Source: Vannielia litorea
GTDB lineage: Bacteria; Pseudomonadota; Alphaproteobacteria; Rhodobacterales; Rhodobacteraceae
Assembly: GCF_019801175.1 (NCBI RefSeq)
Contig: NZ_JAHVJR010000001.1
Span: forward strand, 2,944,580-3,008,579
Direction: 5' to 3'
Length of the DNA stretch: 64,000 nt
Shown: positions 41,062-57,680 of the stretch, piece by piece
Position numbering within the stretch: position 1 is the first letter of the stretch
Layout: each line of letters begins with the position of its first letter
Position numbers and translations under genes: made by a program
Notes under the pieces: model-generated
Told to the model about the DNA's origin: nothing
Database searches by the model: none
The model's input: the letters and a program-made list of their open reading frames with translations, nothing else

Positions 41062-41175
41062 AAGTCCTCCCACGCGCCAGCCCCCCTCATTGACAATCGG
41101 GGGCCGAGCCTTCATGCAAATGGTATACCATTTGGGGCGGCATGCAACCGCCCCGCCCAGGGAGGAGCCACGCCC

Positions 41176-42204: not shown

Positions 42205-42800
42205 TGCTCACCTTCGCCGCCGCCGTCTTCTTCCTCATCATCACCCCCGGCCCGGGCGTGCTGACAACGGCTGGCGTTGGCTCGGGCTTCGGCTTCCGCC
42301 CCGGCCTGCGCTATGTGGTCGGCCTCTTCATCGGCACCAACCTCGTGGCGCTCGGGGTCATCTCAGGCGTCGCCGCCGTGGTGCTCTCGGTCCCGGCCAT
42401 CCGCATCGTGCTGGCCGTCGCCTCCGTGGCCTACCTCTGCTGGCTCGCCGCCAAGATCGCCTTCGCAGGCAGCAAGATCGCCTTCTCTCCCGCCGCCACC
42501 GCCCCCGGCATCCTCGGCGGCGTGATGCTTCAGGCGATCAACCCCAAGGCCTATGCCGTCAACACCACCCTCTTCGCGGGCTTCCCCTTCGCCCCCGACA
42601 ACCTCGTGTTCGAGACCATCGCCAAACTGGTGATCGTCAACGCCATCTGGATTCCCATCCACCTCGGCTGGCTCTGGGCCGGGGCCACGCTCCACCGCCT
42701 CAACCTCTCCGAGGCCGCCCACCGCCGGATCAACATCGCCATGGCCGCCTCGCTGCTGGCCGTTGTCGCCCTCGCCCTCTACGCAAGTTTCCTCAAATGA
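42204..42800 (+). CDS. LysE/RhtB family amino-acid/metabolite exporter
   Basis: 198 aa, six TM, LysE-type N-terminus (MLTFAAAVFFLIITPGPGVL). Start overlaps the preceding stop (TGATG). Confidence 0.8.
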   Translation: MLTFAAAVFFLIITPGPGVLTTAGVGSGFGFRPGLRYVVGLFIGTNLVALGVISGVAAVVLSVPAIRIVLAVASVAYLCWLAAKIAFAGSKIAFSPAATAPGILGGVMLQAINPKAYAVNTTLFAGFPFAPDNLVFETIAKLVIVNAIWIPIHLGWLWAGATLHRLNLSEAAHRRINIAMAASLLAVVALALYASFLK

Positions 42801-44194: not shown

Positions 44195-45323
44195 TGACCA
44201 AGCCGTCCTGACAACCCGCGTCTGGAAGCCCGGCACCGGCCCCTGTGTCGTGCGGCTTGAGGCAAACCGGGTGATCGACATCACTTCCAAGGCCATCCCC
44301 ACCATGCAGGCCCTGCTGGAGCAGCCCGACCCGGCTGCCACCGCCCGTTCCGCGCCCGGCAACTTCCTCTGCACCTTTGAAGAGCTGGCCGAAGCCTCCA
44401 CCGAGGCCGCCGGCCCCGATGCCCTCCGCCTCCTCGCCCCCGCCGACCTTCAGGCGATCAAGGCCAGCGGCGTCACCTTCGCCGAGAGCATGGTCGAGCG
44501 TGTCATCGAGGAGCGCGCCGCAGGCGATGCCGACCGCGCCGAAGAGATCCGCGCTCGGGTGAAATCCCACATCGGAGATAGCCTCTCCGGCATCGAGCCG
44601 GGCAGCGACAAGGCCATGGCCGTCAAGGAGGTGCTGCAAAAGGAGGGCCTCTGGTCGCAATACCTCGAAGTCGGCATCGGCCCCGACGCCGAGGTCTTCA
44701 CCAAGTGCCAGCCCATGGCCGCCGTGGGCCACGGCGCTTCCGTGGGCCTGCACCCCATGTCGAGCTGGAACAACCCCGAACCCGAGGTCGTGCTGGCCGT
44801 CAGTTCCAAAGGCAAAATCGTCGGCGCCACCCTCGGCAACGATGTAAACCTGCGCGACGTGGAGGGCCGCTCCGCCCTCCTCCTCGGCAAGGCGAAAGAC
44901 AACAACGCCTCCGCCGCCCTCGGTCCCTTCCTCCGCCTCTTCGACGACAAGTTCACCCTCGATGACGTGCGCAAGACTCACCTCACCATGAGCGTGACCG
45001 GCACCGATGGCTTCACCCTCGAAGGCTCCTCCTCGATGGAGAAAATCTCCCGCGACCCGGCCTCGATCGTCAGCCAAACCATCGGCCGCCACCACCAATA
45101 CCCCGACGGCTTCTTCCTCTACCTCGGCACCATGTTCGCCCCGGTCAAAGACCGCGACGCCCCGGGCCAGGGCTTCACCCACCACCCGGGCGATACCGTC
45201 TCCATCTCCACCCCGCTGCTCGGCACCCTCACCAACACCGTCCGCCTCTCCACCGAGGCGCCGGAGTGGACCTTCGGCACCTCCGCGCTCATGCGCAACC
45301 TTGCCCAGCGAGGCCTGCTATGA
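44178..45323 (+). CDS. Fumarylacetoacetate hydrolase (FAH) family protein
   Basis: FAH fold signatures (KIVGATLGNDVNLRD..., HHPGDTVSISTPLLGTL). Confidence 0.8.
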   Translation: MLPQNSDQAVLTTRVWKPGTGPCVVRLEANRVIDITSKAIPTMQALLEQPDPAATARSAPGNFLCTFEELAEASTEAAGPDALRLLAPADLQAIKASGVTFAESMVERVIEERAAGDADRAEEIRARVKSHIGDSLSGIEPGSDKAMAVKEVLQKEGLWSQYLEVGIGPDAEVFTKCQPMAAVGHGASVGLHPMSSWNNPEPEVVLAVSSKGKIVGATLGNDVNLRDVEGRSALLLGKAKDNNASAALGPFLRLFDDKFTLDDVRKTHLTMSVTGTDGFTLEGSSSMEKISRDPASIVSQTIGRHHQYPDGFFLYLGTMFAPVKDRDAPGQGFTHHPGDTVSISTPLLGTLTNTVRLSTEAPEWTFGTSALMRNLAQRGLL

Positions 45324-46162
45324 CCCTCTATGACGATACCCAGTGCAACCTCGGCGAAGGCCCGCTCTGGCACCCCGAGCGGCAAGAGTTCTTCTGGTTC
45401 GACATCAACAAGCACCACATGCACGCCCAGCGCGCGGGCCAGACCTTCACATGGGAGTTCGAGCACTTCGTCTCCGCCGGAGGCTGGGTCGATCGTGACA
45501 CGCTGCTGATCGCCTCAGACGCCGCGCTCTTCACTTTCAACCTCACCACAGGGGCGCGTGAAGAGATCACCTCGCTCGAGGCCGACAACCCCGCCACCCG
45601 CTCCAACGATGGCCGCGCCGACCCTCAGGGCGGCTTCTGGATCGGCACGATGGGCTGCAAGAAGGAAACCGGCGCAGGCGCCTACTACCGCTACTACCGC
45701 GGCGAGCTGCGCCAGCTCTGGGATAACTGGAGCATCCCCAACTGCACCTGCTTCACCCCAGATGGCACCACCGCCTACATCGCCGACACGCCGCAAAACC
45801 AGATCTGGCGGGTGGCGCTCGATGAGCACGGCTGGCCCAAGGGCGACCCCGAACCTTGGCTGACCCTCCCCAAGGAGAGCCACCGCCCCGATGGCGCCGT
45901 CTGCGACACCCAAGGTAACCTCTGGATCGCCCAATATGGCCACTCCAAAGTCACCGTCCACGCGCCCGATGGCACCGAGCTGCGCGCCCTCCCCGTCCCC
46001 GGCAAGAACACCACCTGCCCGGCCTTCGGCGGCGAGGCGCTCGACCAGCTCTATGTGACGACAGCCATTCAGGAAGACCCAAACCCAGCCCCCGAAGACG
46101 GCTGCACCTACCTGCTCGATCCGCAGGCGACCGGGCAGGCCGAACATCTGGTGATCCTATGA
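45320..46162 (+). CDS. SMP-30/gluconolactonase/LRE-family lactonase
   Basis: MTLYDDTQCNLGEGPLWHPERQEFFWFDI... with RSNDGRADPQGGFW and the NG..FSPDG six-blade propeller pattern. Confidence 0.8.
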   Translation: MTLYDDTQCNLGEGPLWHPERQEFFWFDINKHHMHAQRAGQTFTWEFEHFVSAGGWVDRDTLLIASDAALFTFNLTTGAREEITSLEADNPATRSNDGRADPQGGFWIGTMGCKKETGAGAYYRYYRGELRQLWDNWSIPNCTCFTPDGTTAYIADTPQNQIWRVALDEHGWPKGDPEPWLTLPKESHRPDGAVCDTQGNLWIAQYGHSKVTVHAPDGTELRALPVPGKNTTCPAFGGEALDQLYVTTAIQEDPNPAPEDGCTYLLDPQATGQAEHLVIL

Positions 46163-47061
46163 GCCGTTTCCTCTGCATCGGTGAATGCATGGTCGAATTG
46201 GCCCAAACCGGGCCTGACACCTACCGCCGCGGCTTCGCAGGCGACACCTTCAACACCGCATGGTACGCCCGCCGCTGCCTCCCCGAGAGCTGGGATGTCA
46301 GCTACGCCACCGCGGTCGGCACAGATGCCACCTCAGCCGAGATGACCGCCTTCATGCAGGCCGAGGGTGTCAGCCCCGTCACCCGCGAAATCCCGGATCG
46401 CACGGTGGGCCTCTACATGATCGCCACCAACGACGGCGAGCGCAGCTTCTCCTACTGGCGCAGCCACTCCGCCGCCCGCCTGCTGGGCGAAGATACCGAC
46501 TGGCTCGCCAGCACCTTCGCCACCGCCGAGATGATCCACTTCTCCGGCATCACCCTCGCCATCCTCGCCCCCGACCAGCGCAGCCGCCTGTGCAATGCCC
46601 TGCGCTCCTCCCGCGCCACCGTCAGCTTCGACACCAACCTGCGCCCGCGCCTCTGGGAGAACGAGAACGCCATGAAGCGCGGCCTCACCCAAGGCGCCTC
46701 CGCCGCCTCAATCGTGCTGCCCAGCTTCGATGAGGAAACCGCCCTCTTCGGCGACCCCACGCCAGAGCACACCATCGCCCGCTACCGCGAGGCCGGGGCC
46801 TCCATCATCGCGGTGAAAAACGGCGCCGAGGCGCTCACGCTGGCCACGCCCGAGGGCATCACCGAGATCGCCTGCGAGCCGGTCGACAAGGTGGTGGACA
46901 GCACCGCCGCAGGCGACAGCTTCGCCGCCCGCTTCCTCGCCGGTCTCGCCCAGCAGGAGCCGCCCGCCGAGGCCGCCCGCGCCGCCATGGGTCTCGCCGC
47001 CAAAGTCATCCGCGCGCCCGGCGCGCTCGTGCCAGATATCTTCTCAGGAGACAGCAAATGA
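46159..47061 (+). CDS. kdgK: PfkB-family sugar-acid kinase (2-dehydro-3-deoxygluconokinase-like)
   Basis: N-terminal GECMVEL, C-terminal TAAGDSFAARFLAG anion-hole motif. Confidence 0.75.
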   Translation: MSRFLCIGECMVELAQTGPDTYRRGFAGDTFNTAWYARRCLPESWDVSYATAVGTDATSAEMTAFMQAEGVSPVTREIPDRTVGLYMIATNDGERSFSYWRSHSAARLLGEDTDWLASTFATAEMIHFSGITLAILAPDQRSRLCNALRSSRATVSFDTNLRPRLWENENAMKRGLTQGASAASIVLPSFDEETALFGDPTPEHTIARYREAGASIIAVKNGAEALTLATPEGITEIACEPVDKVVDSTAAGDSFAARFLAGLAQQEPPAEAARAAMGLAAKVIRAPGALVPDIFSGDSK

Positions 47062-48017
47062 ACATCCTCATCATCGGCGGCGCAGGTGTCGTCGGGCAAA
47101 AGCTCGCCACCTCCCTCGCCGCCAAGGGCACCCTGCGCGGCAAGCCGATCAGCCGCCTCATCCTCGCCGATGTGGTCGCCCCCGCCGCCGTCGAGGCGCC
47201 CTTCGCCGTCGAAACCACAAAGTGTGACATCACCGACCCGGCCTCGATGGAAGCGATCATCACCGCCGAGACCGATGTGATCTACTTGCTGGCCGCCATC
47301 GTCTCCGGTCAGGCCGAGGCCGAGTTCGAGCTGGGCTGGAACATCAACATGCACGGCACCATCAACGTGCTGGAGCGCGCCCGCACCCTCGGCACCTGCC
47401 CGGTAGTCGTGTTCTCGTCGTCGATGGCCGTCTACGGCGGCGACACGCCCGACCCGATCACCGATTTCTCCTCGCTGAACCCGCAAACCTCCTACGGTGC
47501 GCAAAAGGCCATCGGCGAGATGATGGTCACCGACTACTCCCGCAAGGGCTACATCGATGGCCGCGCCTTCCGCCTGCCCACCATCTCGGTGCGCCCCGGC
47601 AAGCCCAACGCGGCGGCCTCCGGCTTCATGTCGTCGATCTTCCGCGAGCCGCTCAACGGCCAGCCCGCCAACTGCCCCGTCGATGACAGCTTCCCGCACT
47701 ACTACCTCAGCCCGCGCAAATGCGTGGAGAACCTCGTGATCGGCGCCGAGATCCCGGCGGAGGATTTCGGCCCCAACCGCGCCGTGCAACTGCCCGGCCG
47801 CATGTGGACAATCCGCCAATGCATCGACGCGATGACCGCCGTCGCGGGCCCCGAGCCCGCAAAGCTCATCACCTGGAACGACGATCCGGTGATCCAGAAC
47901 ATCGTGAAAGGCTGGCGCTTCGATCTGCGGCCTGAAAAGGCCCGGCGCCTCGGCATGTCGGCGGACGAGACCTTCGAAGACAACATCCGCTACTACATCG
48001 AAGACGATCGCCCCTGA
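47058..48017 (+). CDS. NAD-dependent epimerase/dehydratase-family dehydrogenase (acid-sugar dehydrogenase, DenD-like?)
   Basis: IIGGAGVVGQKL Rossmann motif and a YGAQK catalytic YxxxK. Confidence 0.75.
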   Translation: MNILIIGGAGVVGQKLATSLAAKGTLRGKPISRLILADVVAPAAVEAPFAVETTKCDITDPASMEAIITAETDVIYLLAAIVSGQAEAEFELGWNINMHGTINVLERARTLGTCPVVVFSSSMAVYGGDTPDPITDFSSLNPQTSYGAQKAIGEMMVTDYSRKGYIDGRAFRLPTISVRPGKPNAAASGFMSSIFREPLNGQPANCPVDDSFPHYYLSPRKCVENLVIGAEIPAEDFGPNRAVQLPGRMWTIRQCIDAMTAVAGPEPAKLITWNDDPVIQNIVKGWRFDLRPEKARRLGMSADETFEDNIRYYIEDDRP

Positions 48018-48944: not shown

Positions 48945-49070
48945 TCCGTTAACACGTCGCCGTCATGCACATCTGCATATGCATAGGATGTGCATGGGAT
49001 GTGCATCAGTTGTGCATCAACAAAATATAGCGTTAACGCCCATCCGGCCCCGCCGCACAGGCATTAACGC
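48945..49070. repeat. AT-rich convergent intergenic island with six TGCAT/ATGTGCAT direct repeats and three (G)TTAACGC motifs
   Basis: Seen directly: gtcATGCACatcTGCATATGCATaggATGTGCATgggATGTGCATcagttGTGCATcaa, flanked by cGTTAACacg, cGTTAACGCc and cATTAACGCa. Confidence 0.5.
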
Positions 49071-49076
49071 AAAGCC

Positions 49077-50015
49077 TCAGTTGACCGGCGTCAGCAGGTC
49101 GTTTCCGGCCAGAAAGGCGCTGATGTTGTCGCGCTGAAGCTTCGCCATCGCCGCCCGCGTCTCCACCGTGCCCGAGCCCTGGTGCGGCTGGATCACCACG
49201 TTGTCGAACTCGTAGAACCGCGCGTCGATCTTCGGCTCGTTCACGAACACATCCAGCCCCGCGCCATAGATCCCGCCGCTCTTCAGCGCGGCGATCAGAG
49301 CCTCTTCGTCCACCGTCGAGCCGCGCGAGATGTTCACCAGGATGCCGCGCGGGCCCAGCGCCTCAAGCACCTCTTTCGAAACGATATTTTCGGTCGCTTT
49401 GCCACCCACCGTGGCCACGATCAGGTAATCGACAGCGGCGGCCAGCGCCTCGGGGCTGTCATGATAGGTCCAGCCCGGCGTCTCCTTCTCGGAGCGGCTC
49501 CAGTAGTGCAGATCCATCTTGAACGGCACCAGCCGCTCGGCAATCTCGCGCCCGATCCGGCCAAGGCCAAGGATGCCCGCGCGGCCCCCGCTGACCTTGC
49601 GGTTCAGCCGATATTCACCCTTTTCGGCCCATGATCCGGAGCGCGCCCACTGGCTCGCATGTTCCATCTCCCGGCCGCACATCAGCAGCATCGCCACGGC
49701 AAGGTCAGCCACGTCATCGTTGAGCACGTCAGGGGTGTTGGTCACGCGAATATCGCGCTCCGAGGCGGCCGCCACGTTAATGGAGTCGTAACCAACCCCG
49801 AAGTTGGCGATGACCCCAAGGTTCGGCAGCAGGTCCATCGCCTCGGCGCCAAACGGCTTGTGCCCCTTGAAGCCCGCAGCGGTGATGCCCGCCCGCGTGG
49901 CTTCGTCGAGGCTGCCGATCTCGGTGGTTTCGGCCAGAAAAACCGGGTCGAACGTCTCTTTCAGCTTGGCCAGATCGGCCTCGCTGTAGTTCCCGATTGC
50001 GATCACCTTGCTCAT
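49077..50015 (-). CDS. D-isomer-specific 2-hydroxyacid dehydrogenase (glyoxylate/hydroxypyruvate reductase family)
   Basis: GLGRIGREIAERL NAD motif and the catalytic Arg/Glu/His triad region (ISRGSTVDE...HQGSGT). Confidence 0.85.
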   Translation of the reverse strand: MSKVIAIGNYSEADLAKLKETFDPVFLAETTEIGSLDEATRAGITAAGFKGHKPFGAEAMDLLPNLGVIANFGVGYDSINVAAASERDIRVTNTPDVLNDDVADLAVAMLLMCGREMEHASQWARSGSWAEKGEYRLNRKVSGGRAGILGLGRIGREIAERLVPFKMDLHYWSRSEKETPGWTYHDSPEALAAAVDYLIVATVGGKATENIVSKEVLEALGPRGILVNISRGSTVDEEALIAALKSGGIYGAGLDVFVNEPKIDARFYEFDNVVIQPHQGSGTVETRAAMAKLQRDNISAFLAGNDLLTPVN

Positions 50016-50089
50016 GGCCTGTTCCTCCCCGGCGGCGCGTCAAATGGTATACCATTCCCTCCCACCGCACCGCCGGGGAGTCAAGCCGC

Positions 50090-50932
50090 TCAGCCTTCGC
50101 AGATCTCCTGCACCGACTTTTTCACCGCCTCCAGCGAGAAGACCTGATCCAGCCAGTCTTCCTTGAAGATCACGCTCTTGGCCTTGTCGATCGCCATCAG
50201 GGCGCCATCGCTGAACTTGCCCTCCGGGAAGATGCCAAAGGCAATCGCCAGCTCGATCTTCAGATGCCCCAGCACGAAGTCATGCGCCGCCGCCTCCGGC
50301 ACCCCCATGCTCACCGCCCGGTCGGTCGCATCGCGCAACGCAAGGCTCATCGTGGCCGCCACCGTCTCGCTCAGCGCAGGCTCCAGCACGGCGATGTTTT
50401 CCAGCGTGCAGCGATGGCTCCGGGCCACCGGCGCATAGATGATCTTCGCGATCTCCTCGCAGAGCGCATAATGCTCCTCCGGCCCCTGAATCAGCGCGCA
50501 AACGATCCCCTGCGGCGCCGCGATCCCGCCGAAGTAATCCGCCTGCGCCTCCTTGGTCTCCTGCACCTCGAGGATATGCGGGTGGCAGGGATGGGTGCAA
50601 AAGTAGGTGATGTCATCGCGCTCCGGCATCTCCCCTGCATAGGGCGCCGCGGCGTCCAGCACGATCACCGCCGCGCCGGGCTTCAGCTTGTCCACGAAGC
50701 CATGGGTGATCTTGCCGATCAGCCGGTCCGGCACCGCCATCAGCACCACATCGGCGTCTGAAATCGCGTTGTCGCCGTCGGTCACGGCCTCCACGCCCAC
50801 CTCGTCCAGCAGCCGTTTGCGGCCCACTTCTGACACTTCCACATGGTCAATCTCGAACCGCGTGGGCTTGAGGTTCTGCGCCAGCCGAACGCCCATCTTT
50901 CCCCCCGCACCGAGCAAAGCAACCTTGGTCAT
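50090..50932 (-). CDS. NAD(P)-binding dehydrogenase-like protein (Rossmann N-domain plus 6PGDH-C-like domain), function unknown; candidate oxidoreductase partner of the DUF1537 kinase/RLP
   Basis: MTKVALLGAGGKMG N-terminus. First gene upstream of the kinase, with a 2-nt gap. Longer ORF to 50977 is possible. Confidence 0.55.
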   Translation of the reverse strand: MTKVALLGAGGKMGVRLAQNLKPTRFEIDHVEVSEVGRKRLLDEVGVEAVTDGDNAISDADVVLMAVPDRLIGKITHGFVDKLKPGAAVIVLDAAAPYAGEMPERDDITYFCTHPCHPHILEVQETKEAQADYFGGIAAPQGIVCALIQGPEEHYALCEEIAKIIYAPVARSHRCTLENIAVLEPALSETVAATMSLALRDATDRAVSMGVPEAAAHDFVLGHLKIELAIAFGIFPEGKFSDGALMAIDKAKSVIFKEDWLDQVFSLEAVKKSVQEICEG

Positions 50933-50933
50933 C

Positions 50934-52247
50934 TCATTCTCCTCCTGCGGCACCACCGCCGCGTTTGATCCATCCAAAATAATCGTCCGATCCCATCTGC
51001 CCGCCCTTCAGCGCCAGCTCGAGCCCGGCCAAATTCTCATCCTCCGAATGCGCCCTGAGCAGCGCCGCACCGGGGATCGTCGGGGCCAGTGCGGTAAAGG
51101 CATAAAGCCCCAGCTCGCGGCTCGCGTGGCCACTGGTATCCCCGCCCGAGATCACCGCCCGCTTCAGCCCCGTCTGCCGCAGCAGCCGCGCCAGCACCTT
51201 GCCCAGCGCCGCGCCGATCCGCGCATTCGCCTCTTCCATCCCGCCTGCCGGCACCGCCGCCCGCAGCCGCGCCACAGCAGGGTCATCCGGCCCCTTCGCG
51301 GTGTAGATCAGCGGGTCCCGCCCGGCTTCCAGAGCCTTGAGCGCCGTCTCATAGGCCCCCGTAGCCTCGCCCTTCACGGCGGCCACCGCATCCAGCTCGA
51401 TCCCCTCGAACCCATGCGCCTCAGCCCATGCAATCTGCGCCGCCGTCACCGGCGAAACCGAGCCGGAGACAGCCAGCATCCGCTCCACCGGCCCGGCGCT
51501 CTCGCCCCGGTCCTCCGCAGGCAGCCATCCCTGCGCGCGCCAATGCTCCACCAGCGCGTATTCCACGCCTTGCGAACCGACGGCAAACACCGGCGACTGG
51601 TCCCACATCCGCTGCCCGACCCGGCCCATATGCGCATCCGTCATCGCATCGAATGACCAGACCTCCGCCTCCGGCGAACCGTCCAAGTCCTCCAGCGACA
51701 CCAGCCCAAAGCTCTTGCCCGTCTGCTTCGCCAGATGCCGCGCCACATCGCTCTCATCCATCGGCGTCACCGGATGCCGTGCCATCACCGGGTGCCGGTC
51801 GAGCCGGAACACCCCGCCGGGGCCGGACGCAAACAAATGCCCGAAAGCCTGATAACGCCGCATCTTCGGCGCGGCGAGCAGACAGGGGATGAACGGCCCT
51901 TTCACCACCTCCGCCCCAAGGTCGATTGCCTTGCCGATCGAGCCGATCTCGGGCGATGAGTCCAAGGTCGAGCAAGTTTTGTAATGCACCACCCGCGCAC
52001 CCGTTCCGGCCAGAAAGCGGAACACCCCCGGCAACTCCCGCTCCATCCAGCCGGGCGAATGCGAGCGCGCCGTGGTCGCTACCCCAACCGCCCGCACGCC
52101 GGGAAACCGCGCCAGCTGCGCCTCCGTTGGCACATCCAAGAACAGCACCGCAGGCACCCCCGCGAACTCCAGCACCTCCATGCTGGCCGCCGAGCCGGTG
52201 AAGTCATCCCCCACCCAGCCGATCAGGGTGCCGCCCGGCAGGCTCAC
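50934..52247 (-). CDS. Four-carbon acid-sugar kinase family protein (DUF1537 + DUF4392; OtnK/OiaK-like), paralogue 1
   Basis: GDDFTGSAAS N-motif and ISGGDTSGHASRELG C-motif, homologous to 55643..56881. Start set at GTG overlapping the RLP stop (GTGA). The 126-aa Gly/Arg-rich upstream extension of the raw ORF is rejected. Confidence 0.75.
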   Translation of the reverse strand: MSLPGGTLIGWVGDDFTGSAASMEVLEFAGVPAVLFLDVPTEAQLARFPGVRAVGVATTARSHSPGWMERELPGVFRFLAGTGARVVHYKTCSTLDSSPEIGSIGKAIDLGAEVVKGPFIPCLLAAPKMRRYQAFGHLFASGPGGVFRLDRHPVMARHPVTPMDESDVARHLAKQTGKSFGLVSLEDLDGSPEAEVWSFDAMTDAHMGRVGQRMWDQSPVFAVGSQGVEYALVEHWRAQGWLPAEDRGESAGPVERMLAVSGSVSPVTAAQIAWAEAHGFEGIELDAVAAVKGEATGAYETALKALEAGRDPLIYTAKGPDDPAVARLRAAVPAGGMEEANARIGAALGKVLARLLRQTGLKRAVISGGDTSGHASRELGLYAFTALAPTIPGAALLRAHSEDENLAGLELALKGGQMGSDDYFGWIKRGGGAAGGE

Positions 52248-53488
52248 CCGAAGGCCTCCAGCGCGCCCTTGAGCGCGGGTCGTGTCGCAGCATAGTCCTC
52301 CGCCGCCACACCCGCCTGCGCCGCCTCCCAAGCCTCCCGCAATGAGGCCACGCCTGCCGCCGGCCCATCCGGGTGCGCCATGATCCCGCCGCCCGCCGCG
52401 TGGATGCAATCTGCGTGGCCGACGCGGGCATAGGTCTCCGCCGCCTGCACCGCCGTCTGGCCCGAGGAGAACACCGGCATCGCCACGCAGGGCTTGTCCT
52501 CCCACATTGGCGTGCCGACCGAGAGCGCCGAGGCCACCACGCTGTCGTCCGCCTCCGAGAACTTGTTGCGCAGCCCGTTCACGTGCATGTGGTCCGCCCC
52601 GGCCAGCCGCCAGAGCTTGCTCCACGCAGTGTAGTCCCAGCCCAGCATGTCGGCCCGGCTCAGGTAGCCCCAGCCGCAGCGGTGCGCATGGATCGGCAGC
52701 TCCGAATGGCGCGAGAAGGCGAGGAAACCCGCAAAGCCCACCGAGTTCAGCGAAACCATCGCACAGGTCGCCCCAAGCTCCAGCAGCAGGTCATGCCGCC
52801 ACCGCATCTCGTCCACCTCGCCCGTCAGGTTGAAGGCAAACATCACCTTCTTGCCGGTCTTCTCGGCATGGTCGTTCAGCACGCGCATCACCGCCCGCGC
52901 CCGCGCGTCGAACGGGCAGTTCGGCCCGTCGCTCTGCAACTCGTCATCCTTGATGAAGTCGATGCCCGCCGCGGCCAGATCACCGGCCAGCGAAGCCGTC
53001 TCCTCCGGCCCAAAGCCCACAGAGGGCTTTACGATGGTGCCGATCAACGGCCCTCTCTCCACGCCGCTCAAACGCCGCGTCCCCTCGATCCCAAACTTCG
53101 GCCCCGGATGGGCCGCGCCAAACTCCCGCGGCAGCCGGATATCGCGCAGCCGCAGCCCCGAGAATTGCCGCAACTCAAAGAGGTTGCCTGCCACCGTCGC
53201 CACGAGGTTGGGGATCGACGCCCCGATATTCCCCATCGGCCAACTCAACGTCACCTTCGCCCGCGTATACCGCTCCCCCGTGGCCCCACCGCCCAGCGAC
53301 GGCTCGGCCACCTCGCCCACGACCTCCAGCGCCTCCACCCGCGCCGCCGAGCGCTCGCGCAGCTCCGGCGTCTCCCCCGGCACAGAAACAAAGGTGCCGG
53401 AACTCTGCTCCCCCGCCATCGCCTCCGCCGCCTTGGCCGGGTCCACCGGGGTTTCGATCAGGTAGTCCGCTTCGATGCGTTCACTCAT
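52244..53488 (-). CDS. RuBisCO-like protein (form IV RuBisCO large-subunit homologue)
   Basis: 414 aa with a RuBisCO large-chain TIM-barrel signature (GLRLRDIRLP, GTIVKPSVGF, IDFIKDDE with the carbamylated-Lys region KDDE, HAHR, GGG). Adjacent to a DUF1537 kinase. Confidence 0.8.
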   Translation of the reverse strand: MSERIEADYLIETPVDPAKAAEAMAGEQSSGTFVSVPGETPELRERSAARVEALEVVGEVAEPSLGGGATGERYTRAKVTLSWPMGNIGASIPNLVATVAGNLFELRQFSGLRLRDIRLPREFGAAHPGPKFGIEGTRRLSGVERGPLIGTIVKPSVGFGPEETASLAGDLAAAGIDFIKDDELQSDGPNCPFDARARAVMRVLNDHAEKTGKKVMFAFNLTGEVDEMRWRHDLLLELGATCAMVSLNSVGFAGFLAFSRHSELPIHAHRCGWGYLSRADMLGWDYTAWSKLWRLAGADHMHVNGLRNKFSEADDSVVASALSVGTPMWEDKPCVAMPVFSSGQTAVQAAETYARVGHADCIHAAGGGIMAHPDGPAAGVASLREAWEAAQAGVAAEDYAATRPALKGALEAFG

Positions 53489-54198
53489 TGGAAGTGATCC
53501 TGGTGATAGAGTTCATTGGCGCGCTCGAGGTGGTCTCGCATGGCCTTCGCCGCCGCGCCCTCATCCCCTGCTGCAATCGCATCGAGTATCGCGCGGTGCT
53601 CGGTGAGCGTCAGTTGCTCCAACCCGCGCTTGCGCACCGCCTCTGCGTGAAAGTCGCGCAACCAATCGAACACGCCGGCAGCGAGGGTCTCGAAAATGGG
53701 GTTAGCCGAAATGGCCGCGATGCGACGGTGGAACTTTCCGTCGATCTCAAGAAACTTCTCCGGCTCTTCCGCCGAAAGCTCCTGCGCCGCCAGCAGCGCC
53801 TCCAGCGAGGCGATGTCCACCTCTGTCCGGCGGCGTGCGGCGATCCGGGCCATCTCGGCCTCCAGCGCCGCGCGGGCCTCCTTCAGGTGGTCCATCGAGG
53901 AGGTATGCGCGAGCAGGTGCCGCACCCCGGTGCCCAGTTGCCCGATCAGCCCATCGAGCGACGGCTCCGCCACCCTCGGGCGCCCGCCATGCCGGATTTC
54001 GATCACGCCGCGATGCTGGAGCGCCTGCATCGCCTCGCGGATCGCCGGCCGCCCAATCTCATATCGCGCCATCAGCTCCCGCTCGGAAGGCAAGGCATCG
54101 CCCGGGCCAAGGCCGTCCTCGCGGATCAACCGCAGCAGACGATCCTGCACCTCATCGGCCAGCTTCCGGGGTTTTATTTGATCTGGTAAGCTCATCAT
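53485..54198 (-). CDS. GntR/FadR-family transcriptional regulator
   Basis: N-terminal GntR HTH (LPSERELMARYEIGRPAIREAMQAL) plus FadR-type C-domain. Start overlaps the RLP start region by 4 nt. Confidence 0.8.
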   Translation of the reverse strand: MMSLPDQIKPRKLADEVQDRLLRLIREDGLGPGDALPSERELMARYEIGRPAIREAMQALQHRGVIEIRHGGRPRVAEPSLDGLIGQLGTGVRHLLAHTSSMDHLKEARAALEAEMARIAARRRTEVDIASLEALLAAQELSAEEPEKFLEIDGKFHRRIAAISANPIFETLAAGVFDWLRDFHAEAVRKRGLEQLTLTEHRAILDAIAAGDEGAAAKAMRDHLERANELYHQDHFQ

Positions 54199-54246
54199 AC
54201 CAGTTGCTAGCGCAAGCGTCCGCACCGATCAAGAGCCTTGCTTGGC

Positions 54247-55014
54247 TCAGATGCCTTGCGCCGCCTTCAGCCAGCCCAGCGTCGGCTCCGTCGGCCCGCC
54301 GGGCTTGTATTCCGCCCCCAGCGGGGACTCCCAGCCAAGCGCCTTCAAGTGCCTGTAGATATGCGTGAAATTCACCTCGCCATGATCCGGCGCACCCCGG
54401 TCCGGCACCGCCGCGATCTGGATATGCCCGATCTTCGGCAAGAGCCGCTCCAACCGGTGGCTGAGGTCCCCTTCCATCAACTGCACATGGTAGCAGTCGA
54501 ACATGATCTTCAGGTTCTCCGCCCCCACCTCGGCCAGAATCGCCTCCGCCTGCGCGGTGGTCGAAAGGAAGTATCCCGGCGCGTCATAGTGGTTGATCGG
54601 CTCGATCAGAATGGTCTTTCCCATTCCCGCCGCCTTGCCGCAAGCATAGCCCAGCGCCTCGACAAAGGTGTCATGGTCGCCTCCGAAGCCCGCCATCACA
54701 TGCACCTTCCCGGTGCCGCTCGCCTCGGCATAGGCCAGCGCCTCGTCGATGGCATCCCGCGCCTCCGCCTCACGCCCCGGCACCGCCGAAAAGCCCATCT
54801 CGCGCTTCGCCGCATCGCCCCGCGAGGCATTGAGGCCCAGCATCTCCAGCCCGGTCTCGGCCAGCGCATCGGCCACCTCGCCCGCAGGCACCGCATAGGG
54901 CCAATGGCACTCCACCGCGTCGAACCCCGCCGCCTTGGCGGCCCGGATCGCTTGCGGAAGCGGCAACTCGCTCCAGAGGAACCCGAGGTTGGCCGAAAAT
55001 CTCATGCGTCCCAC
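54247..55014 (-). CDS. otnI: Hydroxypyruvate isomerase family protein (2-oxo-tetronate isomerase OtnI-like)
   Basis: TIM-barrel xylose-isomerase-like. MRFSANLGFLW... and conserved Glu/His metal ligands (ILIEPINHYD, FDCYH). Confidence 0.8.
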   Translation of the reverse strand: MGRMRFSANLGFLWSELPLPQAIRAAKAAGFDAVECHWPYAVPAGEVADALAETGLEMLGLNASRGDAAKREMGFSAVPGREAEARDAIDEALAYAEASGTGKVHVMAGFGGDHDTFVEALGYACGKAAGMGKTILIEPINHYDAPGYFLSTTAQAEAILAEVGAENLKIMFDCYHVQLMEGDLSHRLERLLPKIGHIQIAAVPDRGAPDHGEVNFTHIYRHLKALGWESPLGAEYKPGGPTEPTLGWLKAAQGI

Positions 55015-55646
55015 TCCAGATCGAACTTGCTGACCAGCGCCTGAACCTGCCCGTCGTCGAGGCCCCGCGCGCCCATGCCCCGCGTCATCAGCGCCAGCTT
55101 GGCCGTGGCTTCCAACTCCTCGATGGCGTTGCAGGCCGCCTCCACGTCCTTGCCCGCCACCACCGGCCCGTGGTTGGCCAGCATCACCGCCGATCGTTTA
55201 CCCGCCAGCCCGCGCACCGCCTCGCCCATCGCCGGATCGCCTGGCAGGAAAAAGGGCAGCAGCTTCACCCGGCCCAACTGCATCACCCCATAGGGGGTGA
55301 GCGGCGGCAAAAAGTCGTCCTCGTCGGCCTCCAGCATCGAGAGCGCAACCGAGTGGCACGAATGCAGGTGCACCACCGCCCCCGCCGTGCCGCGCGTGTC
55401 GTAAAACGCCGTGTGCAGCGCCATTTCCTTGGTTGGCTTGTCGCCGCCCACGTGCTGCCCCGCGCTGTCGAACCGCGCCAGCCGCCCCGGGTCGAGCCGG
55501 CCAAAGCTGGTGCCGGTGGGCGAGACCAGCAGGCCGCCATCCTCGGTGCGGGCCGAGATATTGCCGGTCGAGCCGTGGGTCAGCCCCCGGTCGAAAAGCG
55601 ATTTTGCCAGCATGCAAAGCTGTTCGCGCAGGGCCGTCTCGCTCAT
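55002..55646 (-). CDS. otnC: Class II aldolase/adducin-family decarboxylase (3-oxo-tetronate 4-phosphate decarboxylase OtnC-like)
   Basis: LTHGSTGNISAR plus His metal ligands (AVVHLHSCHS). Start set at MSETALREQL (codon 157 of the raw ORF). Confidence 0.8.
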   Translation of the reverse strand: MSETALREQLCMLAKSLFDRGLTHGSTGNISARTEDGGLLVSPTGTSFGRLDPGRLARFDSAGQHVGGDKPTKEMALHTAFYDTRGTAGAVVHLHSCHSVALSMLEADEDDFLPPLTPYGVMQLGRVKLLPFFLPGDPAMGEAVRGLAGKRSAVMLANHGPVVAGKDVEAACNAIEELEATAKLALMTRGMGARGLDDGQVQALVSKFDLEWDA

Positions 55647-56881
55647 GCCAGCATCCCCAGCGCATCGGAAAAGAAGCTCTCGGCCCCGAAGTTGCCCGAC
55701 TTCAGCGCCAGCGCAATCTCCTCGCCACCGGAGACGCAGCCGCACCATGGCACGCCCGGCGCAATCTCGCGGCCCACGTCGAGCCGGGTCACGCCCAGCG
55801 CCTGCGTGACCGCGCCCGAGGTCTCGCCGCCCGCCACCACGATCCGCCGCGCGCCCTGGTCGCGCGCCTGCACCGCCAGCGCGGCCAGCGCCTCTTCGAC
55901 CACTTCGCCAGCGCGGGCTGTCCCCAATTCGCTCTGCGCCCGGCGCACCGCCTGCGGCTCCGCCGTAGCATAGACGATCGGCGCCTTGCCCATGTCCTGC
56001 TTGGCCAGCCAGTTGGAGGCCGCGCCGTGGCCCTCGGCGGCCAGCACCAGCGGGTCGAGCTTGAAGGCCGGGCCAGCATAGGCCGCCACCTGCGCGCGCG
56101 TCATCGCCGAGCAACTGCCCGAGAGCACCACCGCGCCCGGCCCCACCTGTGGCACCGTGGCTTCACGGGCGCTGTCATCGAGCAGGCCCGCCTCGCGATA
56201 GAGCGCCGGCAAGGGCATCGCCAGCGCCGAACCGCCGGTCATCAGCGCCATGTCGCGGCCCGCGCGGGCTATGATCTCGAGGTCGGCGTCCGCCACCGCA
56301 TCCACGACCACATGCGCCGGGGCCTTGGCCAGCGCCTCGGCCAGCGCCTCCGCGCCCCGCGCCACGGTGAGCCTGTCCACCAGCCCCACCTCGCGCGTAA
56401 CCTGCGGGCCAAGCAGCCGCATCAGGTTGCTGTCGCGCATCGGGGTCAGCGGGTGGTCCTTCATCGGGCTCTCCGCCAAGGGCTGCTGCCCGACAAAGAG
56501 GTTGCCCATGAACACCGAGCGCCCGTTCTCGGGGAAGGCCGGGCAATAGACCGTGCGCTCCGCCCCCAGCGCCGCCATCAACGCCTCCGACACCGGGCCG
56601 ATGTTGCCCTCTGCGGTCGAGTCGAAGGTGCTGCAATACTTCCAGAAAAACCGCTCCGCCCCGGTGCCCTTCAGCCAGTCGAGCGCGGTCAGCGCCTCCG
56701 ACACGGCCTCGCTCACCGGCGCAGTGCGGATCTTCAGGGCGACCACCTCAAAGGGCGCATCGCTCTCGCCGTCCTCCGGCACCCCGATGCGCAGCGAAAC
56801 CTTCGCCCCGCTCCGCGCCAGCAGGCCCGCCAGATCGGTGGCACCCGTGAAATCGTCGGCAATCGCCCCGAAAATGGCCAT
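55643..56881 (-). CDS. otnK: Four-carbon acid-sugar kinase (DUF1537/DUF4392; 3-oxo-tetronate kinase OtnK-like), paralogue 2
   Basis: MAIFGAIADDFTGATDLAGLL N-motif, VVAGGETSGAVTQALG C-motif. Start overlaps the otnC stop. Confidence 0.85.
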   Translation of the reverse strand: MAIFGAIADDFTGATDLAGLLARSGAKVSLRIGVPEDGESDAPFEVVALKIRTAPVSEAVSEALTALDWLKGTGAERFFWKYCSTFDSTAEGNIGPVSEALMAALGAERTVYCPAFPENGRSVFMGNLFVGQQPLAESPMKDHPLTPMRDSNLMRLLGPQVTREVGLVDRLTVARGAEALAEALAKAPAHVVVDAVADADLEIIARAGRDMALMTGGSALAMPLPALYREAGLLDDSAREATVPQVGPGAVVLSGSCSAMTRAQVAAYAGPAFKLDPLVLAAEGHGAASNWLAKQDMGKAPIVYATAEPQAVRRAQSELGTARAGEVVEEALAALAVQARDQGARRIVVAGGETSGAVTQALGVTRLDVGREIAPGVPWCGCVSGGEEIALALKSGNFGAESFFSDALGMLA

Positions 56882-56882
56882 G

Positions 56883-57680
56883 CTATTCCTCGTGAATTCC
56901 GTCAGCCGTGAAGGCCCCGCCCTGGTAAACCACCTGCGGCGCATCGATGGCAGGCATCTCCTCCATCTGCTCCACCACGGCGCGGTAATCTTCCGCCCGG
57001 TCCTGCGGTTCCCAGCCGAGGAAGCCGACCTCGCGGTTGTCCCACCAGCCGGTCGCGTTGTTGGAGGCGCCGTAGACGATCGGGCAGCCGATCTTCGGCG
57101 CGCGGAACACGCACTCGATCAGCCGCACGAAATCATCGTAGCTCATCCAGCTCGCCAGCATCCGCCGGTTCTTCGGCTCAGGGAAGCAGGAGCCGATCCG
57201 CACGCTCGCGGTCTCGATGCCGAATTTGTTGTAATACATCGACGCCATCGCCTCGCCGAAGACCTTGCTCACACCATAGAGCCCGTCCGGCTGGGTCAGC
57301 GCATTGGCATCGAGCCGCGTCGTCTGCTTGTGAAAGCCCACCGCGTGGTTGGAACTGGCAAAGATCACCCGGTTGCAGCCGGTGTTACGACAGGCCTCGT
57401 ATAGGTTGAACACCCCGTCGATATTGGCGTTGCGGATGACCGACCACGTATCTTCAATCGACCGGCCGCCCAGATGCACGATCCCGTCGCAGCCGCGCAC
57501 GAGGTCTTCAACCGCCGCCTTGTCGCCCAAGTCGCAAACCACGACCTCCTCGTTCTCCCCGGCAGGCGGCATCTCGACCACGTCAGAGAGCCTCAGGGTC
57601 TTCGCCATATGTTTCAGGCGGTCGCGGCACATCGAGCCAAGGCCGCCAGCGGCGCCGGTGATCAGCAGTCGGTTCATCAT
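56883..57680 (-). CDS. Short NAD-dependent epimerase/dehydratase-family dehydrogenase (uronate dehydrogenase-like / acid-sugar dehydrogenase)
   Basis: LLITGAAGGLG Rossmann motif and YGVSK catalytic motif. 265 aa, the size class of uronate dehydrogenases. Confidence 0.7.
   Translation of the reverse strand: MMNRLLITGAAGGLGSMCRDRLKHMAKTLRLSDVVEMPPAGENEEVVVCDLGDKAAVEDLVRGCDGIVHLGGRSIEDTWSVIRNANIDGVFNLYEACRNTGCNRVIFASSNHAVGFHKQTTRLDANALTQPDGLYGVSKVFGEAMASMYYNKFGIETASVRIGSCFPEPKNRRMLASWMSYDDFVRLIECVFRAPKIGCPIVYGASNNATGWWDNREVGFLGWEPQDRAEDYRAVVEQMEEMPAIDAPQVVYQGGAFTADGIHEE

What the first reader, a model, noticed from the sequence alone, without database searches (positions are those of the whole stretch)
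50090..54225. RuBisCO-like protein (RLP) operon with a DUF1537 acid-sugar kinase, an unassigned NAD-binding dehydrogenase and a GntR regulator
A form-IV RuBisCO homologue (52244-53488) is translationally coupled (GTGA overlap) to a DUF1537/DUF4392 kinase. Next come a Rossmann/6PGDH-C-like protein of unknown function and a 2-hydroxyacid dehydrogenase, all under a FadR-type GntR gene. RLP + DUF1537 kinase neighbourhoods are known from D-apionate and related branched or 3-oxo acid-sugar pathways, where the RLP acts on the kinase product (decarboxylase or transcarboxylase/hydrolase chemistry). The substrate and the role of the 50090-50932 protein here are not assignable from sequence. It could be the oxidoisomerase or dehydrogenase that makes the kinase's 3-oxo substrate.
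Basis: partly seen in the sequence, partly recalled or inferred. Interest (0 to 1): 0.7.

Follow-up and report, generated by a model that had tools for sequence, protein, structure and literature searches.

The report
RuBisCO-like D-apionate catabolic gene cassette
This is a four-gene cassette (regulator, RuBisCO-like enzyme, acid-sugar kinase, oxidoisomerase) of a pathway already known from soil bacteria for degrading the plant branched sugar acid D-apionate, found here in a sugar-acid gene island of the marine bacterium Vannielia litorea, so it is a new member of a known kind.

Summary
On the minus strand lie a FadR/NanR-type GntR gene (53485-54225), a form-IV RuBisCO homologue (52244-53488), a DUF1537 kinase (50934-52247), a PF16896 Rossmann protein (50090-50932) and a D-2-hydroxyacid dehydrogenase (49077-50015). 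The ATGA and GTGA overlaps are real.

The "unassigned" dehydrogenase belongs to the D-apionate oxidoisomerase (ApnO) family. It is 85% identical to the Roseovarius sp. CAU 1744 protein that a 2026 JBC paper calls ApnO, in the same island.

The RLP belongs to a clade (59-79% identity, 80 genomes) that is almost always followed by this kinase, is often linked to D-apiose dehydrogenase and transporter genes, and is never linked to the isomerases the decarboxylase route needs. It keeps RuBisCO residues that the decarboxylase clade has lost (E60, N123, H327, S379). I read it as the 3-oxo-isoapionate-4-phosphate transcarboxylase/hydrolase type, which yields 3-phosphoglycerate and glycolate.

The regulator and its palindromic operator are shared with the apiose clusters. 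The 2-hydroxyacid dehydrogenase has a different operator and probably belongs to a ketogluconate/idonate regulon.

No biochemistry exists for this marine clade and no apionate transporter lies nearby. Verdict: new member of a known kind, low to moderate interest.

The parts
53485..54225 (-). FadR/NanR-subfamily GntR regulator of the cassette. The likely true start is ATG 54198. Its stop overlaps the RLP start (ATGA).
   Evidence: Pfam GntR plus FCD. NCBIfam NanR subfamily NF003011 scores 268.4, above the cutoff of 260. ATGA overlap. Homologues of 38-75% identity lie within 12 kb of the RLP in 48 of 80 related loci.
54183..54203 (.). Operator-like palindrome CTGGTA-N9-TACCAG, lying over the probable GntR start codon.
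   Evidence: Sequence read. The same site sits at the 5' end of the GntR gene in L004, L005, L008 and L010, and in the intergenic space 34-36 nt before the RLP in L015 and L016. The half-site CTGGTAT[AG][AG]T occurs 45 times in 36 of 84 loci, against 4.6 in shuffles. These include the apiose clusters of R. etli CFN42 and the Xanthobacteraceae.
52244..53488 (-). RuBisCO-like protein (form IV), read as the 3-oxo-isoapionate-4-phosphate transcarboxylase/hydrolase type.
   Evidence: Pfam and NCBIfam, PDB 3nwr, model and fold search, clade context, active-site comparison, and JGI names for clade members.
50934..52247 (-). DUF1537 (SBD_N + NBD_C) acid-sugar kinase, OiaK-like. Its GTG start overlaps the RLP stop.
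   Evidence: Pfam. The best NCBIfam model is OiaK at 451.8 bits. It follows the RLP in 70 of 71 loci. It keeps 102 of the 103 positions that are at least 95% conserved in apiose-linked kinases.
50090..50932 (-). PF16896 Rossmann protein of the ApnO (D-apionate oxidoisomerase) family.
   Evidence: PGDH_C 202 bits. PDB 5t57 E = 5e-86 and 3c24. 85% identical to Roseovarius CAU 1744 P0303, named ApnO in PMC12994016. It keeps 68 of the 69 positions conserved in apiose-linked homologues.
50043..50056 (.). Perfect palindrome AATGGTATACCATT in the gap before the 2-hydroxyacid dehydrogenase. It marks a separate regulatory unit.
   Evidence: An identical copy lies at 41119-41132. 0.21 matches are expected by chance.
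49077..50015 (-). D-2-hydroxyacid dehydrogenase. It is a neighbour rather than a pathway member, and is probably a 2-ketogluconate/2-keto-L-gulonate reductase.
   Evidence: Pfam. The best PDB hit is 4lsw at 277 bits. PMC12994016 characterised the island homologue as 2KGR. It is present next to the cassette in only 5 of 80 loci.
54247..56944 (-). Context: OtnI (54247-55014), OtnC (55002-55649) and OtnK (55643-56881/56944). These are tetronate-pathway genes directly upstream on the same strand.
   Evidence: NCBIfam scores: OtnC 285 (cutoff 250), OtnK 518 (cutoff 350), OtnI 266 (cutoff 325, not reached). The same order is seen in L004, L006, L010 and L086.
42797..48017 (+). Context: convergent operon. 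It holds a GlcD-like FAD oxidase (42797-44194, a possible sink for glycolate), an FAH-like protein, a lactonase, a KDG-kinase-like PfkB protein and D-erythronate dehydrogenase DenD (47058-48017).
   Evidence: Pfam. NCBIfam: DenD 388 bits against a cutoff of 325. GlcD 352 bits, below its cutoff. The operon is conserved in L004, L005, L006, L010 and L086.

Best explanation
The cassette GntR-RLP-kinase-ApnO (54225-50090, minus strand) is a self-regulated module for D-apionate catabolism. It is the RLP transcarboxylase/hydrolase variant of the pathway described by Carter et al. 2018.

Proposed steps, inferred from homology and context and not shown for this organism:
1. The PF16896 enzyme uses NAD+ to oxidise C2 of D-apionate and shifts the hydroxymethyl group, giving 3-oxo-isoapionate.
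2. The DUF1537 kinase phosphorylates O4.
3. The RLP uses a carbamylated Lys180 and Mg2+ held by Asp182 and Glu183. It decarboxylates to an enediolate, re-adds the CO2 on the neighbouring carbon, hydrates, and cleaves the C-C bond. The products are 3-phosphoglycerate and glycolate.
4. The NanR-like FCD regulator binds the CTGGTA-N9-TACCAG palindrome over its own start codon. It is presumably released by D-apionate or an intermediate.

The cassette sits inside a C4/C5/C6 sugar-acid island, between the OtnKCI tetronate genes and a ketogluconate-reductase-type dehydrogenase. That dehydrogenase has a different operator and is probably not part of the pathway.
For: Organism and literature:
- The window is Vannielia litorea (100% protein match).
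- The same island with the same gene order occurs in Roseovarius sp. CAU 1744 (L086). PMC12994016 labels the genes there ApnO-OiaK-OiaX.

Context of the RLP clade in the 80 genome loci (59-79% identity):
- The kinase lies directly downstream in 70 of 71 loci with room for it.
- An ApnO homologue is present in 54.
- Apiose markers (Gfo/Idh/MocA dehydrogenase, the conserved 640-aa protein, ribose-type binding protein plus DUF2291) are present in 26.
- TIM or RpiB isomerases are present in 0.
- The PGAP-named decarboxylase of R. etli CFN42 is only 43% identical and is followed by TIM and RpiB genes.

Other support:
- JGI names clade members '3-oxoisoapionate-4-phosphate transcarboxylase/hydrolase'. 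They are 67-69% identical to the window protein.
- Active site: this clade keeps E60, T65, N123, K175, K201, D203, E204, H294, R295, H327, K334 and S379. The decarboxylase clade has D60, G123, A177, Q325, Q327 and G379.
- The marine proteins differ from apiose-linked orthologues at 1 of 154 (RLP), 1 of 103 (kinase) and 1 of 69 (ApnO) highly conserved positions.
- The regulator and its operator half-site are shared with bona fide apiose clusters, including R. etli CFN42.
- A marine clade member (L015) has an Amidohydro_2 gene and a TRAP carboxylate transporter in the same operon.
- A marine Rhodobacteraceae strain with an apiose cluster grows on D-apiose (PMC11747546).
Against: - No enzyme of this marine clade has been assayed.
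- I could not obtain the X. autotrophicus Py2 prototype sequence. The transcarboxylase/hydrolase assignment therefore rests on JGI names, context and residue logic.
- The window has no D-apiose dehydrogenase, apionolactonase or obvious apionate transporter.
- The NCBIfam equivalog cutoffs for OiaK (452 against 700) and OiaX (437 against 700) are not reached. The kinase of the R. etli apiose cluster also fails the OiaK cutoff (473 bits), and apiose-linked clade RLPs score like ours (453-459).
- RLPs and kinases linked to an SDR instead of ApnO keep all the same conserved positions. Those positions therefore do not by themselves fix the pathway's starting substrate.
- In Roseovarius and Marivita the cassette has lost its own regulator and is fused to the Otn operon. 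That could mean functional integration with tetronate metabolism.
Confidence: 0.7

Rival explanations
1. The cassette works on a linear C4 (or C5/C6) acid sugar as part of the tetronate island. The ApnO homologue would act as a D-erythronate 3-dehydrogenase, bypassing DenD and OtnI. The kinase and RLP would then process 3-oxo-tetronate (4-phosphate) in parallel with OtnK and OtnC. This idea was raised by Watanabe et al. 2026.
For: The cassette is wedged between OtnKCI and other island genes. In Roseovarius CAU 1744 and Marivita it lacks its own regulator, and the RLP start overlaps the OtnI stop. The marine loci have no apiose dehydrogenase or lactonase. PMC12994016 proposes this reading explicitly. 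In L007 the island-type TGGTATACCA palindrome lies directly upstream of the RLP.
Against: The window already encodes a complete canonical route: DenD, OtnI, OtnK and OtnC. A second kinase and an RLP would be redundant. Marine relatives L005, L007, L015 and L016 carry the cassette without Otn genes. All three enzymes keep virtually every residue conserved in apiose-linked orthologues. In V. litorea the cassette keeps the NanR-like regulator and operator of the apiose clusters.
Confidence: 0.15
2. [quoted passage not shown] Isomerases encoded elsewhere would carry that on to erythrose 4-phosphate.
For: The best NCBIfam model is the decarboxylase equivalog NF042437. PMC12994016 uses the label OiaX.
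Against: The score of 437 is far below the cutoff of 700, while R. etli CFN42 scores 784. Identity to that protein is only 43%. 54 of 154 clade-conserved positions differ, including N123, H325/H327, S379 and E60. None of the 80 clade loci has the TIM or RpiB genes that accompany the decarboxylase.
Confidence: 0.1
3. It is a true CO2-fixing RuBisCO, or an RLP of a different known class (the MtnW enolase, the Rhodospirillum rubrum isomerase, the YkrW type or the hamamelose oxygenase).
For: Most RuBisCO catalytic residues are retained.
Against: K177 is Ser and H298 is Trp. NCBIfam form III, II and I models and the MtnW models are all far below cutoff. No phosphoribulokinase or small-subunit gene was seen among the window genes scanned. 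The obligatory DUF1537 kinase and ApnO partners are not those of these other classes.
Confidence: 0.02

Closest known systems
D-apionate pathway with the RLP transcarboxylase/hydrolase (Carter et al. 2018, Nat Chem Biol 14:696; prototype from Xanthobacter autotrophicus Py2, as cited in PMC6302742)
   Same: The same three enzyme families (PF16896 oxidoisomerase, DUF1537 kinase, RLP) occur in the same order, with no downstream tetrulose-phosphate isomerases. Clade members from the Xanthobacteraceae are 71-73% identical. JGI gives clade members this enzyme name.
   Different: The cassette sits in a marine Rhodobacteraceae sugar-acid island with no apiose dehydrogenase, lactonase or ABC transporter nearby. 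The regulator is co-directional and translationally coupled rather than divergent. Identity to the prototype itself was not measured.
D-apionate pathway with the RLP decarboxylase (Agrobacterium radiobacter K84 / Rhizobium etli CFN42 p42f; PGAP 'OiaX', NF042437)
   Same: It has ApnO and DUF1537 kinase homologues, a NanR-like regulator and the same operator half-site.
   Different: The RLP is only 43% identical. Its active site differs (D60, G123, A177, Q325, Q327, G379). TIM and RpiB isomerase genes are present there and absent here.
C4/C5/C6 sugar-acid island of Roseovarius sp. CAU 1744 and Paracoccus litorisediminis (Watanabe et al., J Biol Chem 2026, PMC12994016)
   Same: The island is the same: OtnK-OtnC-OtnI, RLP-kinase-ApnO, 2-hydroxyacid dehydrogenase, and convergent DenD/PfkB/lactonase/FAH/FAD-oxidase genes. 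The RLP is 75% identical and ApnO 85% identical.
   Different: V. litorea keeps a dedicated GntR gene and operator in front of the RLP. It has a class D beta-lactamase gene where Roseovarius has an HpcH-type aldolase gene.
Tetronate pathway OtnK/OtnC/OtnI (the DUF1537 kinase family, Zhang et al. 2016 PNAS)
   Same: The kinase fold and logic are the same: oxidise to a 3-oxo acid sugar, phosphorylate, then break a C-C bond. The genes lie directly adjacent.
   Different: The cassette kinase is only 28% identical to the OtnK next door. The C-C step is done by an RLP rather than a class II aldolase-type decarboxylase.

Membership tests
RuBisCO large-subunit superfamily, form IV (RLP) | N-terminal and TIM-barrel catalytic domains of the RuBisCO large chain | tested here: met
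   PF00016 200.6 bits and PF02788 39.1 bits. 3nwr at E = 9e-114. AF2 model pLDDT 83, TM 0.88 to 3nwr.
RuBisCO large-subunit superfamily, form IV (RLP) | Carbamylatable Lys and Mg ligands (K201, D203, E204) are kept, but one or more RuBP-binding residues are replaced and the protein does not fit the form I-III models | tested here: met
   The KDDE motif is kept. K177 is Ser and H298 is Trp (residue numbers assigned by motif). rubisco_III scores 217 against a cutoff of 497.
3-oxo-isoapionate-4-phosphate transcarboxylase/hydrolase (EC 3.7.1.28 type) | Close sequence relationship to the characterised X. autotrophicus Py2 enzyme | tested here: inconclusive
   The prototype sequence could not be retrieved. 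Proxies are 67-69% identity to proteins JGI names with this function and 71-73% identity to Xanthobacteraceae clade members.
3-oxo-isoapionate-4-phosphate transcarboxylase/hydrolase (EC 3.7.1.28 type) | Encoded with apnO and oiaK, and without L-erythrulose-1-P / D-erythrulose-4-P isomerase genes | tested here: met
   The kinase and ApnO homologue lie directly downstream. None of 80 clade loci, nor the window, has a TIM or RpiB homologue near the RLP.
3-oxo-isoapionate-4-phosphate transcarboxylase/hydrolase (EC 3.7.1.28 type) | Products are 3-phosphoglycerate and glycolate | not testable with these tools
   This needs an enzyme assay.
[quoted passage not shown] | Equivalog HMM score of at least 700 bits | tested here: not met
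   437.5 bits. The R. etli CFN42 protein scores 783.9.
3-oxo-isoapionate kinase OiaK (NCBIfam NF042436) | Equivalog HMM score of at least 700 bits | tested here: not met
   451.8 bits. The cutoff is not discriminating, because the kinase of the R. etli apiose cluster scores 473 and the Microvirga one 575.
3-oxo-isoapionate kinase OiaK (NCBIfam NF042436) | Two-domain DUF1537 architecture, encoded next to the RLP and ApnO | tested here: met
   SBD_N 151 bits and NBD_C 115 bits. GTGA coupling. 70 of 71 loci.
D-apionate oxidoisomerase ApnO (EC 1.1.1.421; PF16896) | Rossmann N-domain plus PGDH_C domain, and homology to the proteins of characterised apiose clusters | tested here: met
   PGDH_C 202 bits. 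5t57 at E = 5e-86. 51% identical to the R. etli CFN42 cluster protein and 64% to the Microvirga one. 85% identical to the Roseovarius protein called ApnO in PMC12994016.
D-apionate oxidoisomerase ApnO (EC 1.1.1.421; PF16896) | NAD+-dependent conversion of D-apionate to 3-oxo-isoapionate | not testable with these tools
   This needs an assay. PMC12994016 states that such work on ApnO is in progress.
NanR-subfamily FCD/GntR regulators | GntR wHTH plus FCD domain, above the NF003011 cutoff | tested here: met
   268.4 bits against a cutoff of 260. Pfam GntR plus FCD. A conserved palindromic site is present.

The most novel reading that the evidence does not exclude
In marine Rhodobacteraceae the ApnO-kinase-RLP cassette may have been recruited into the tetronate operon. 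In Roseovarius and Marivita it is fused to OtnI without its own regulator. It might then act on a substrate other than D-apionate, for example D-erythronate or another linear acid sugar. The RuBisCO-like enzyme would carry out a carboxyl-transfer and hydrolysis that conserves carbon where OtnC would release CO2. This would be a new physiological role and possibly a new substrate for an RLP.
Probability: 0.1. Interest if true: 0.65.

Novelty: new member of a known kind. Interest (0 to 1): 0.25.

Why it matters
The significance is modest.
- Annotation: public annotation leaves all three enzymes with generic names ('ribulose-bisphosphate carboxylase large subunit family protein', 'four-carbon acid sugar kinase family protein', 'phosphogluconate dehydrogenase C-terminal domain-containing protein'). 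This analysis gives a usable rule for naming them. The rule combines clade, context without TIM/RpiB genes, and the residue signature E60/N123/H327/S379 against D/G/Q/G.
- Regulation: it gives a candidate operator for the NanR-like regulator.
- Ecology: it suggests that roseobacter-group bacteria take up the acid D-apionate rather than the sugar. A plausible source is apiose-rich plant material such as seagrass or duckweed apiogalacturonan (background knowledge, not tested here).
- Enzymology: it identifies a large marine set of near-complete RuBisCO active sites doing non-photosynthetic chemistry. This is of some interest for RuBisCO evolution, but the enzyme class has been known since 2018.

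Tried and rejected
- Primary paper: Carter et al. 2018 is not held in the library. Pathway details come from papers that cite it and from my own knowledge.
- Prototype sequence: I looked for the X. autotrophicus Py2 sequence through the genome scan, a second homologue search and a cluster look-up. No Py2 record surfaced.
- Conserved-position test: I had hoped it would show whether the marine enzymes changed substrate. It separates the decarboxylase clade (54 of 154 positions differ) but not the SDR-linked variant (0 differences). It therefore supports the same kinase and RLP chemistry, not the identity of the first substrate.
- Promoter and terminator scan: it found no sigma-70-like promoter and fewer terminator-like hairpins than in shuffled sequence. 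Transcription units are inferred only from overlaps and palindromes.
- The second GntR (60523-61254): no orthologue lies within 10 kb of the RLP in the related loci. The binder of the TGGTATACCA sites remains unknown.
- Names for the ApnO homologue: a source-name search gave only generic names.
- Alternatives rejected: a bona fide RuBisCO, the MtnW type and the decarboxylase type.


Full report
**What is in the sequence.** The window is 66-68% G+C. The RLP and the PF16896 protein have 100%-identical matches in Vannielia litorea, Rhodobacteraceae. On the minus strand lie five genes:
- a GntR/FCD regulator (53485-54225)
- a RuBisCO large-chain homologue (52244-53488)
- a two-domain DUF1537 kinase (50934-52247)
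- a PF16896 (PGDH_C) Rossmann protein (50090-50932)
- a D-2-hydroxyacid dehydrogenase (49077-50015).

GntR and RLP overlap by ATGA. RLP and kinase overlap by GTGA. One base separates the kinase stop from the next ATG, which has a GGAGGAG ribosome-binding site. A 74-nt gap precedes the last gene. The RLP fold is beyond doubt. Pfam gives 200.6 bits. PDB 3nwr matches over the full length at E = 9e-114. An AlphaFold2 model (pLDDT 83) superposes on 3nwr at TM 0.88.

**Surroundings.** The cassette lies in a sugar-acid island that runs from about 39.4 to 61.3 kb.
- Directly upstream on the same strand are OtnI, OtnC and OtnK (the tetronate pathway). Further upstream are a uronate-dehydrogenase-like protein, a hydrolase, a galactonate-dehydratase-like enolase-superfamily protein, a lactonase and a second GntR.
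- Convergent on the plus strand are a GlcD-like FAD oxidase, an FAH-like protein, a lactonase, a KDG-kinase-like PfkB protein and D-erythronate dehydrogenase (388 bits, cutoff 325). A class D beta-lactamase follows.
- Further left are L-idonate-5-dehydrogenase-like and gluconate-5-dehydrogenase-like genes.

Watanabe et al. (J Biol Chem 2026, PMC12994016) described this type of island in marine Rhodobacteraceae. [quoted passage not shown] I fetched that locus. It has OtnK-OtnC-OtnI-RLP-kinase-PGDH_C-2-Hacid_dh and the same convergent genes. Its RLP is 75% identical to ours and its PF16896 protein is 85% identical. The arrangement is therefore already in the literature. The 'unassigned' dehydrogenase is a member of the D-apionate oxidoisomerase family. 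PDB 5t57 matches at E = 5e-86, and it is 51-64% identical to the proteins of rhizobial and Microvirga apiose clusters.

**Which kind of RLP.** PMC6302742 reports that Carter et al. 2018 characterised two apionate RLPs. One is a decarboxylase (A. radiobacter K84). The other is a transcarboxylase/hydrolase (X. autotrophicus Py2). The only NCBIfam model, NF042437 'OiaX', covers the decarboxylase. R. etli CFN42 scores 784 bits on it and ours scores 437, against a cutoff of 700. The two proteins are 43% identical. In R. etli the RLP and kinase are followed by TIM and RpiB genes, which the decarboxylase product needs.

I collected 80 genome loci whose RLP is 59-79% identical to ours and scored their neighbours by tblastn.
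- The kinase lies directly downstream in 70 of the 71 loci with room for it.
- An ApnO homologue is present in 54.
- A NanR-like GntR is present in 48.
- Apiose markers (Gfo/Idh/MocA dehydrogenase, a conserved 640-aa protein, ribose-type binding protein plus DUF2291) are present in 26.
- TIM or RpiB genes are present in none.

JGI names several clade members '3-oxoisoapionate-4-phosphate transcarboxylase/hydrolase', and these are 67-69% identical to our protein. Apiose-linked clade members score on NF042437 just as ours does, at 453-459 bits.

**Active site.** Residue numbers were assigned by motif from established RuBisCO knowledge. This clade keeps E60, T65, N123, K175, K201, D203, E204, H294, R295, H327, K334, S379, G381, G403 and G404. 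Only K177 (Ser) and H298 (Trp) are changed. Three PGAP-named decarboxylases have D60, G123, A177, Q325, Q327 and G379. An enzyme that must re-carboxylate, hydrate and cleave would be expected to keep these residues. An enzyme that only decarboxylates could lose them. This is an inference, not a demonstration.

**Is the marine version doing the same thing?** In a neighbour-joining tree the marine Rhodobacteraceae proteins (window, L004-L008, L010, L014-L016) form one clade nested among apiose-linked clades. I compared them with positions that are at least 95% conserved in apiose-linked orthologues. The marine majority differs at 1 of 154 RLP positions, 1 of 103 kinase positions and 1 of 69 ApnO positions (a conservative I/V change).

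There is a caveat. RLPs and kinases from a variant in which an SDR replaces ApnO also differ at none of these positions. The test therefore argues for unchanged kinase and RLP chemistry. The conserved ApnO is what points to D-apionate as the entry substrate. One marine clade member (Pseudoprimorskyibacter, L015) has an Amidohydro_2 gene, a TRAP DctPQM transporter, GntR, RLP, kinase and ApnO in a row. This fits uptake of a carboxylate. TRAP DctM genes also lie close to the RLP in many other clade loci. A marine Rhodobacteraceae strain with an annotated apiose cluster grows on D-apiose (PMC11747546).

**Regulation.** A palindrome, CTGGTA-TGATGAGCT-TACCAG (54203-54183), lies over the probable true start codon of the GntR gene at ATG 54198. 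The same site is found at the GntR 5' end in L004, L005, L008 and L010. In L015 and L016 it lies in non-coding DNA 34-36 nt before the RLP. Its conservation is therefore not merely a coding constraint. The half-site CTGGTAT[AG][AG]T occurs 45 times in 36 of 84 loci, against 4.6 in shuffles. It lies mostly just upstream of the RLP, the regulator or ApnO. It is present in the R. etli CFN42 and Xanthobacteraceae apiose clusters and absent from the SDR-type loci. Regulator and operator are therefore part of the conserved apionate module.

The 2-hydroxyacid dehydrogenase is preceded by a different, perfect 14-nt palindrome, AATGGTATACCATT (50043-50056). The only other copy in the window lies between the idonate-5-dehydrogenase-like and gluconate-5-dehydrogenase-like genes (41119-41132). 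0.21 matches are expected by chance. The core of this palindrome also precedes OtnK in Roseovarius and the dehydrogenase in L005. The protein's best PDB match is the K. vulgare enzyme. PMC12994016 characterised the island homologue as a 2-ketogluconate/2-keto-L-gulonate reductase. I therefore place this gene in the island's ketogluconate/idonate regulon, not in the RLP pathway. It accompanies the cassette in only 5 of 80 loci.

**Mechanism proposed.** D-apionate is oxidised and rearranged by the PF16896 enzyme to 3-oxo-isoapionate. The DUF1537 kinase phosphorylates it at O4. The RLP converts the product by decarboxylation, re-carboxylation at the adjacent carbon, hydration and C-C cleavage to 3-phosphoglycerate and glycolate. 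The GlcD-like oxidase in the convergent operon may oxidise the glycolate, though this is speculative. The NanR-like repressor controls the cassette from the palindrome at its own start. What is shown: gene content, coupling, family membership, clade context, residue patterns and operator conservation. What is inferred: every catalytic step and the effector.

**Rivals.** Three alternatives were weighed.
1. Integration with the tetronate pathway on a linear acid sugar, as floated by Watanabe et al. It gains some weight from the fusion to OtnI without a regulator in Roseovarius and Marivita. It is disfavoured by redundancy with the complete DenD/OtnI/OtnK/OtnC set here, and by the stand-alone cassettes in L005, L007, L015 and L016.
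2. A plain decarboxylase. This is disfavoured by score, identity, residues and the missing isomerases.
3. A true RuBisCO or another RLP class. This is excluded for practical purposes.

**Verdict.** The feature is a new member of the known ApnO-OiaK-RLP D-apionate module. It is most likely the transcarboxylase/hydrolase variant, and its island context was published in 2026. Interest is low to moderate. The open points are the lack of any assay for the marine clade, the missing transporter and upstream enzymes, and the meaning of its fusion with the tetronate operon in some genomes.

Noticed in passing
window 41119-41132 and 50043-50056 (also 56923-56932 with one mismatch): The exact 14-nt palindrome AATGGTATACCATT occurs twice. 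One copy lies between the divergent gluconate-5-dehydrogenase-like and L-idonate-5-dehydrogenase-like genes. The other lies before the 2-hydroxyacid dehydrogenase. A one-mismatch copy of the core sits 40 nt before the likely OtnK start. The same core precedes OtnK in Roseovarius (L086 7228-7237), the dehydrogenase in L005, and the RLP in L007. It looks like the operator of an island-wide GntR-type regulon. The regulator that binds it is unidentified.
   Followed up: partly
L002, L021, L024, L026, L031, L033, L051, L060 (soil Rhizobium, Methylobacterium, Bosea, Microvirga and others): In this variant of the same RLP-kinase pair, an SDR replaces the ApnO homologue directly after the kinase. In R. 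etli NXC12 it comes with a LysR regulator and a KdgT-type permease. The RLP and kinase keep all clade-conserved positions, but the NanR operator half-site is absent. The entry substrate is unknown and, as far as I found, uncharacterised.
   Followed up: partly
L086 10001-10004 (Roseovarius sp. CAU 1744) and L006 (Marivita): These genomes lack the cassette's own GntR gene. The RLP start overlaps the OtnI stop, so the apionate-type genes are fused into the tetronate operon.
   Followed up: partly
window 48106-48900 (+): A class D (OXA-like) beta-lactamase ORF with a signal peptide sits between the two convergent sugar-acid operons. Roseovarius CAU 1744 has an HpcH/HpaI aldolase gene at the corresponding position.
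   Followed up: no
window 48964-49006: A cluster of direct and inverted copies of ATGCACATC lies in the AT-richer spacer between the beta-lactamase gene and the end of the 2-hydroxyacid dehydrogenase gene. Its function is unknown.
   Followed up: no
window 56881-56944: The longest OtnK ORF overlaps the upstream uronate-dehydrogenase-like gene by 62 nt. The family alignment starts at residue 25, and an ATG at 56881 directly follows the upstream stop. That ATG is probably the real start.
   Followed up: partly
L015 5261-9925 (Pseudoprimorskyibacter insulae): An Amidohydro_2 (lactonase-type) gene and a TRAP DctPQM transporter precede GntR-RLP-kinase-ApnO on the same strand. DctM genes also abut the RLP in many other clade loci. 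These are candidate apionate or apionolactone uptake and hydrolysis genes.
   Followed up: partly
window 36816-39371 (+) and 35441-36643 (-): A large hybrid histidine kinase (851 aa) and a serine beta-lactamase / PBP-like protein lie just outside the sugar-acid island.
   Followed up: no
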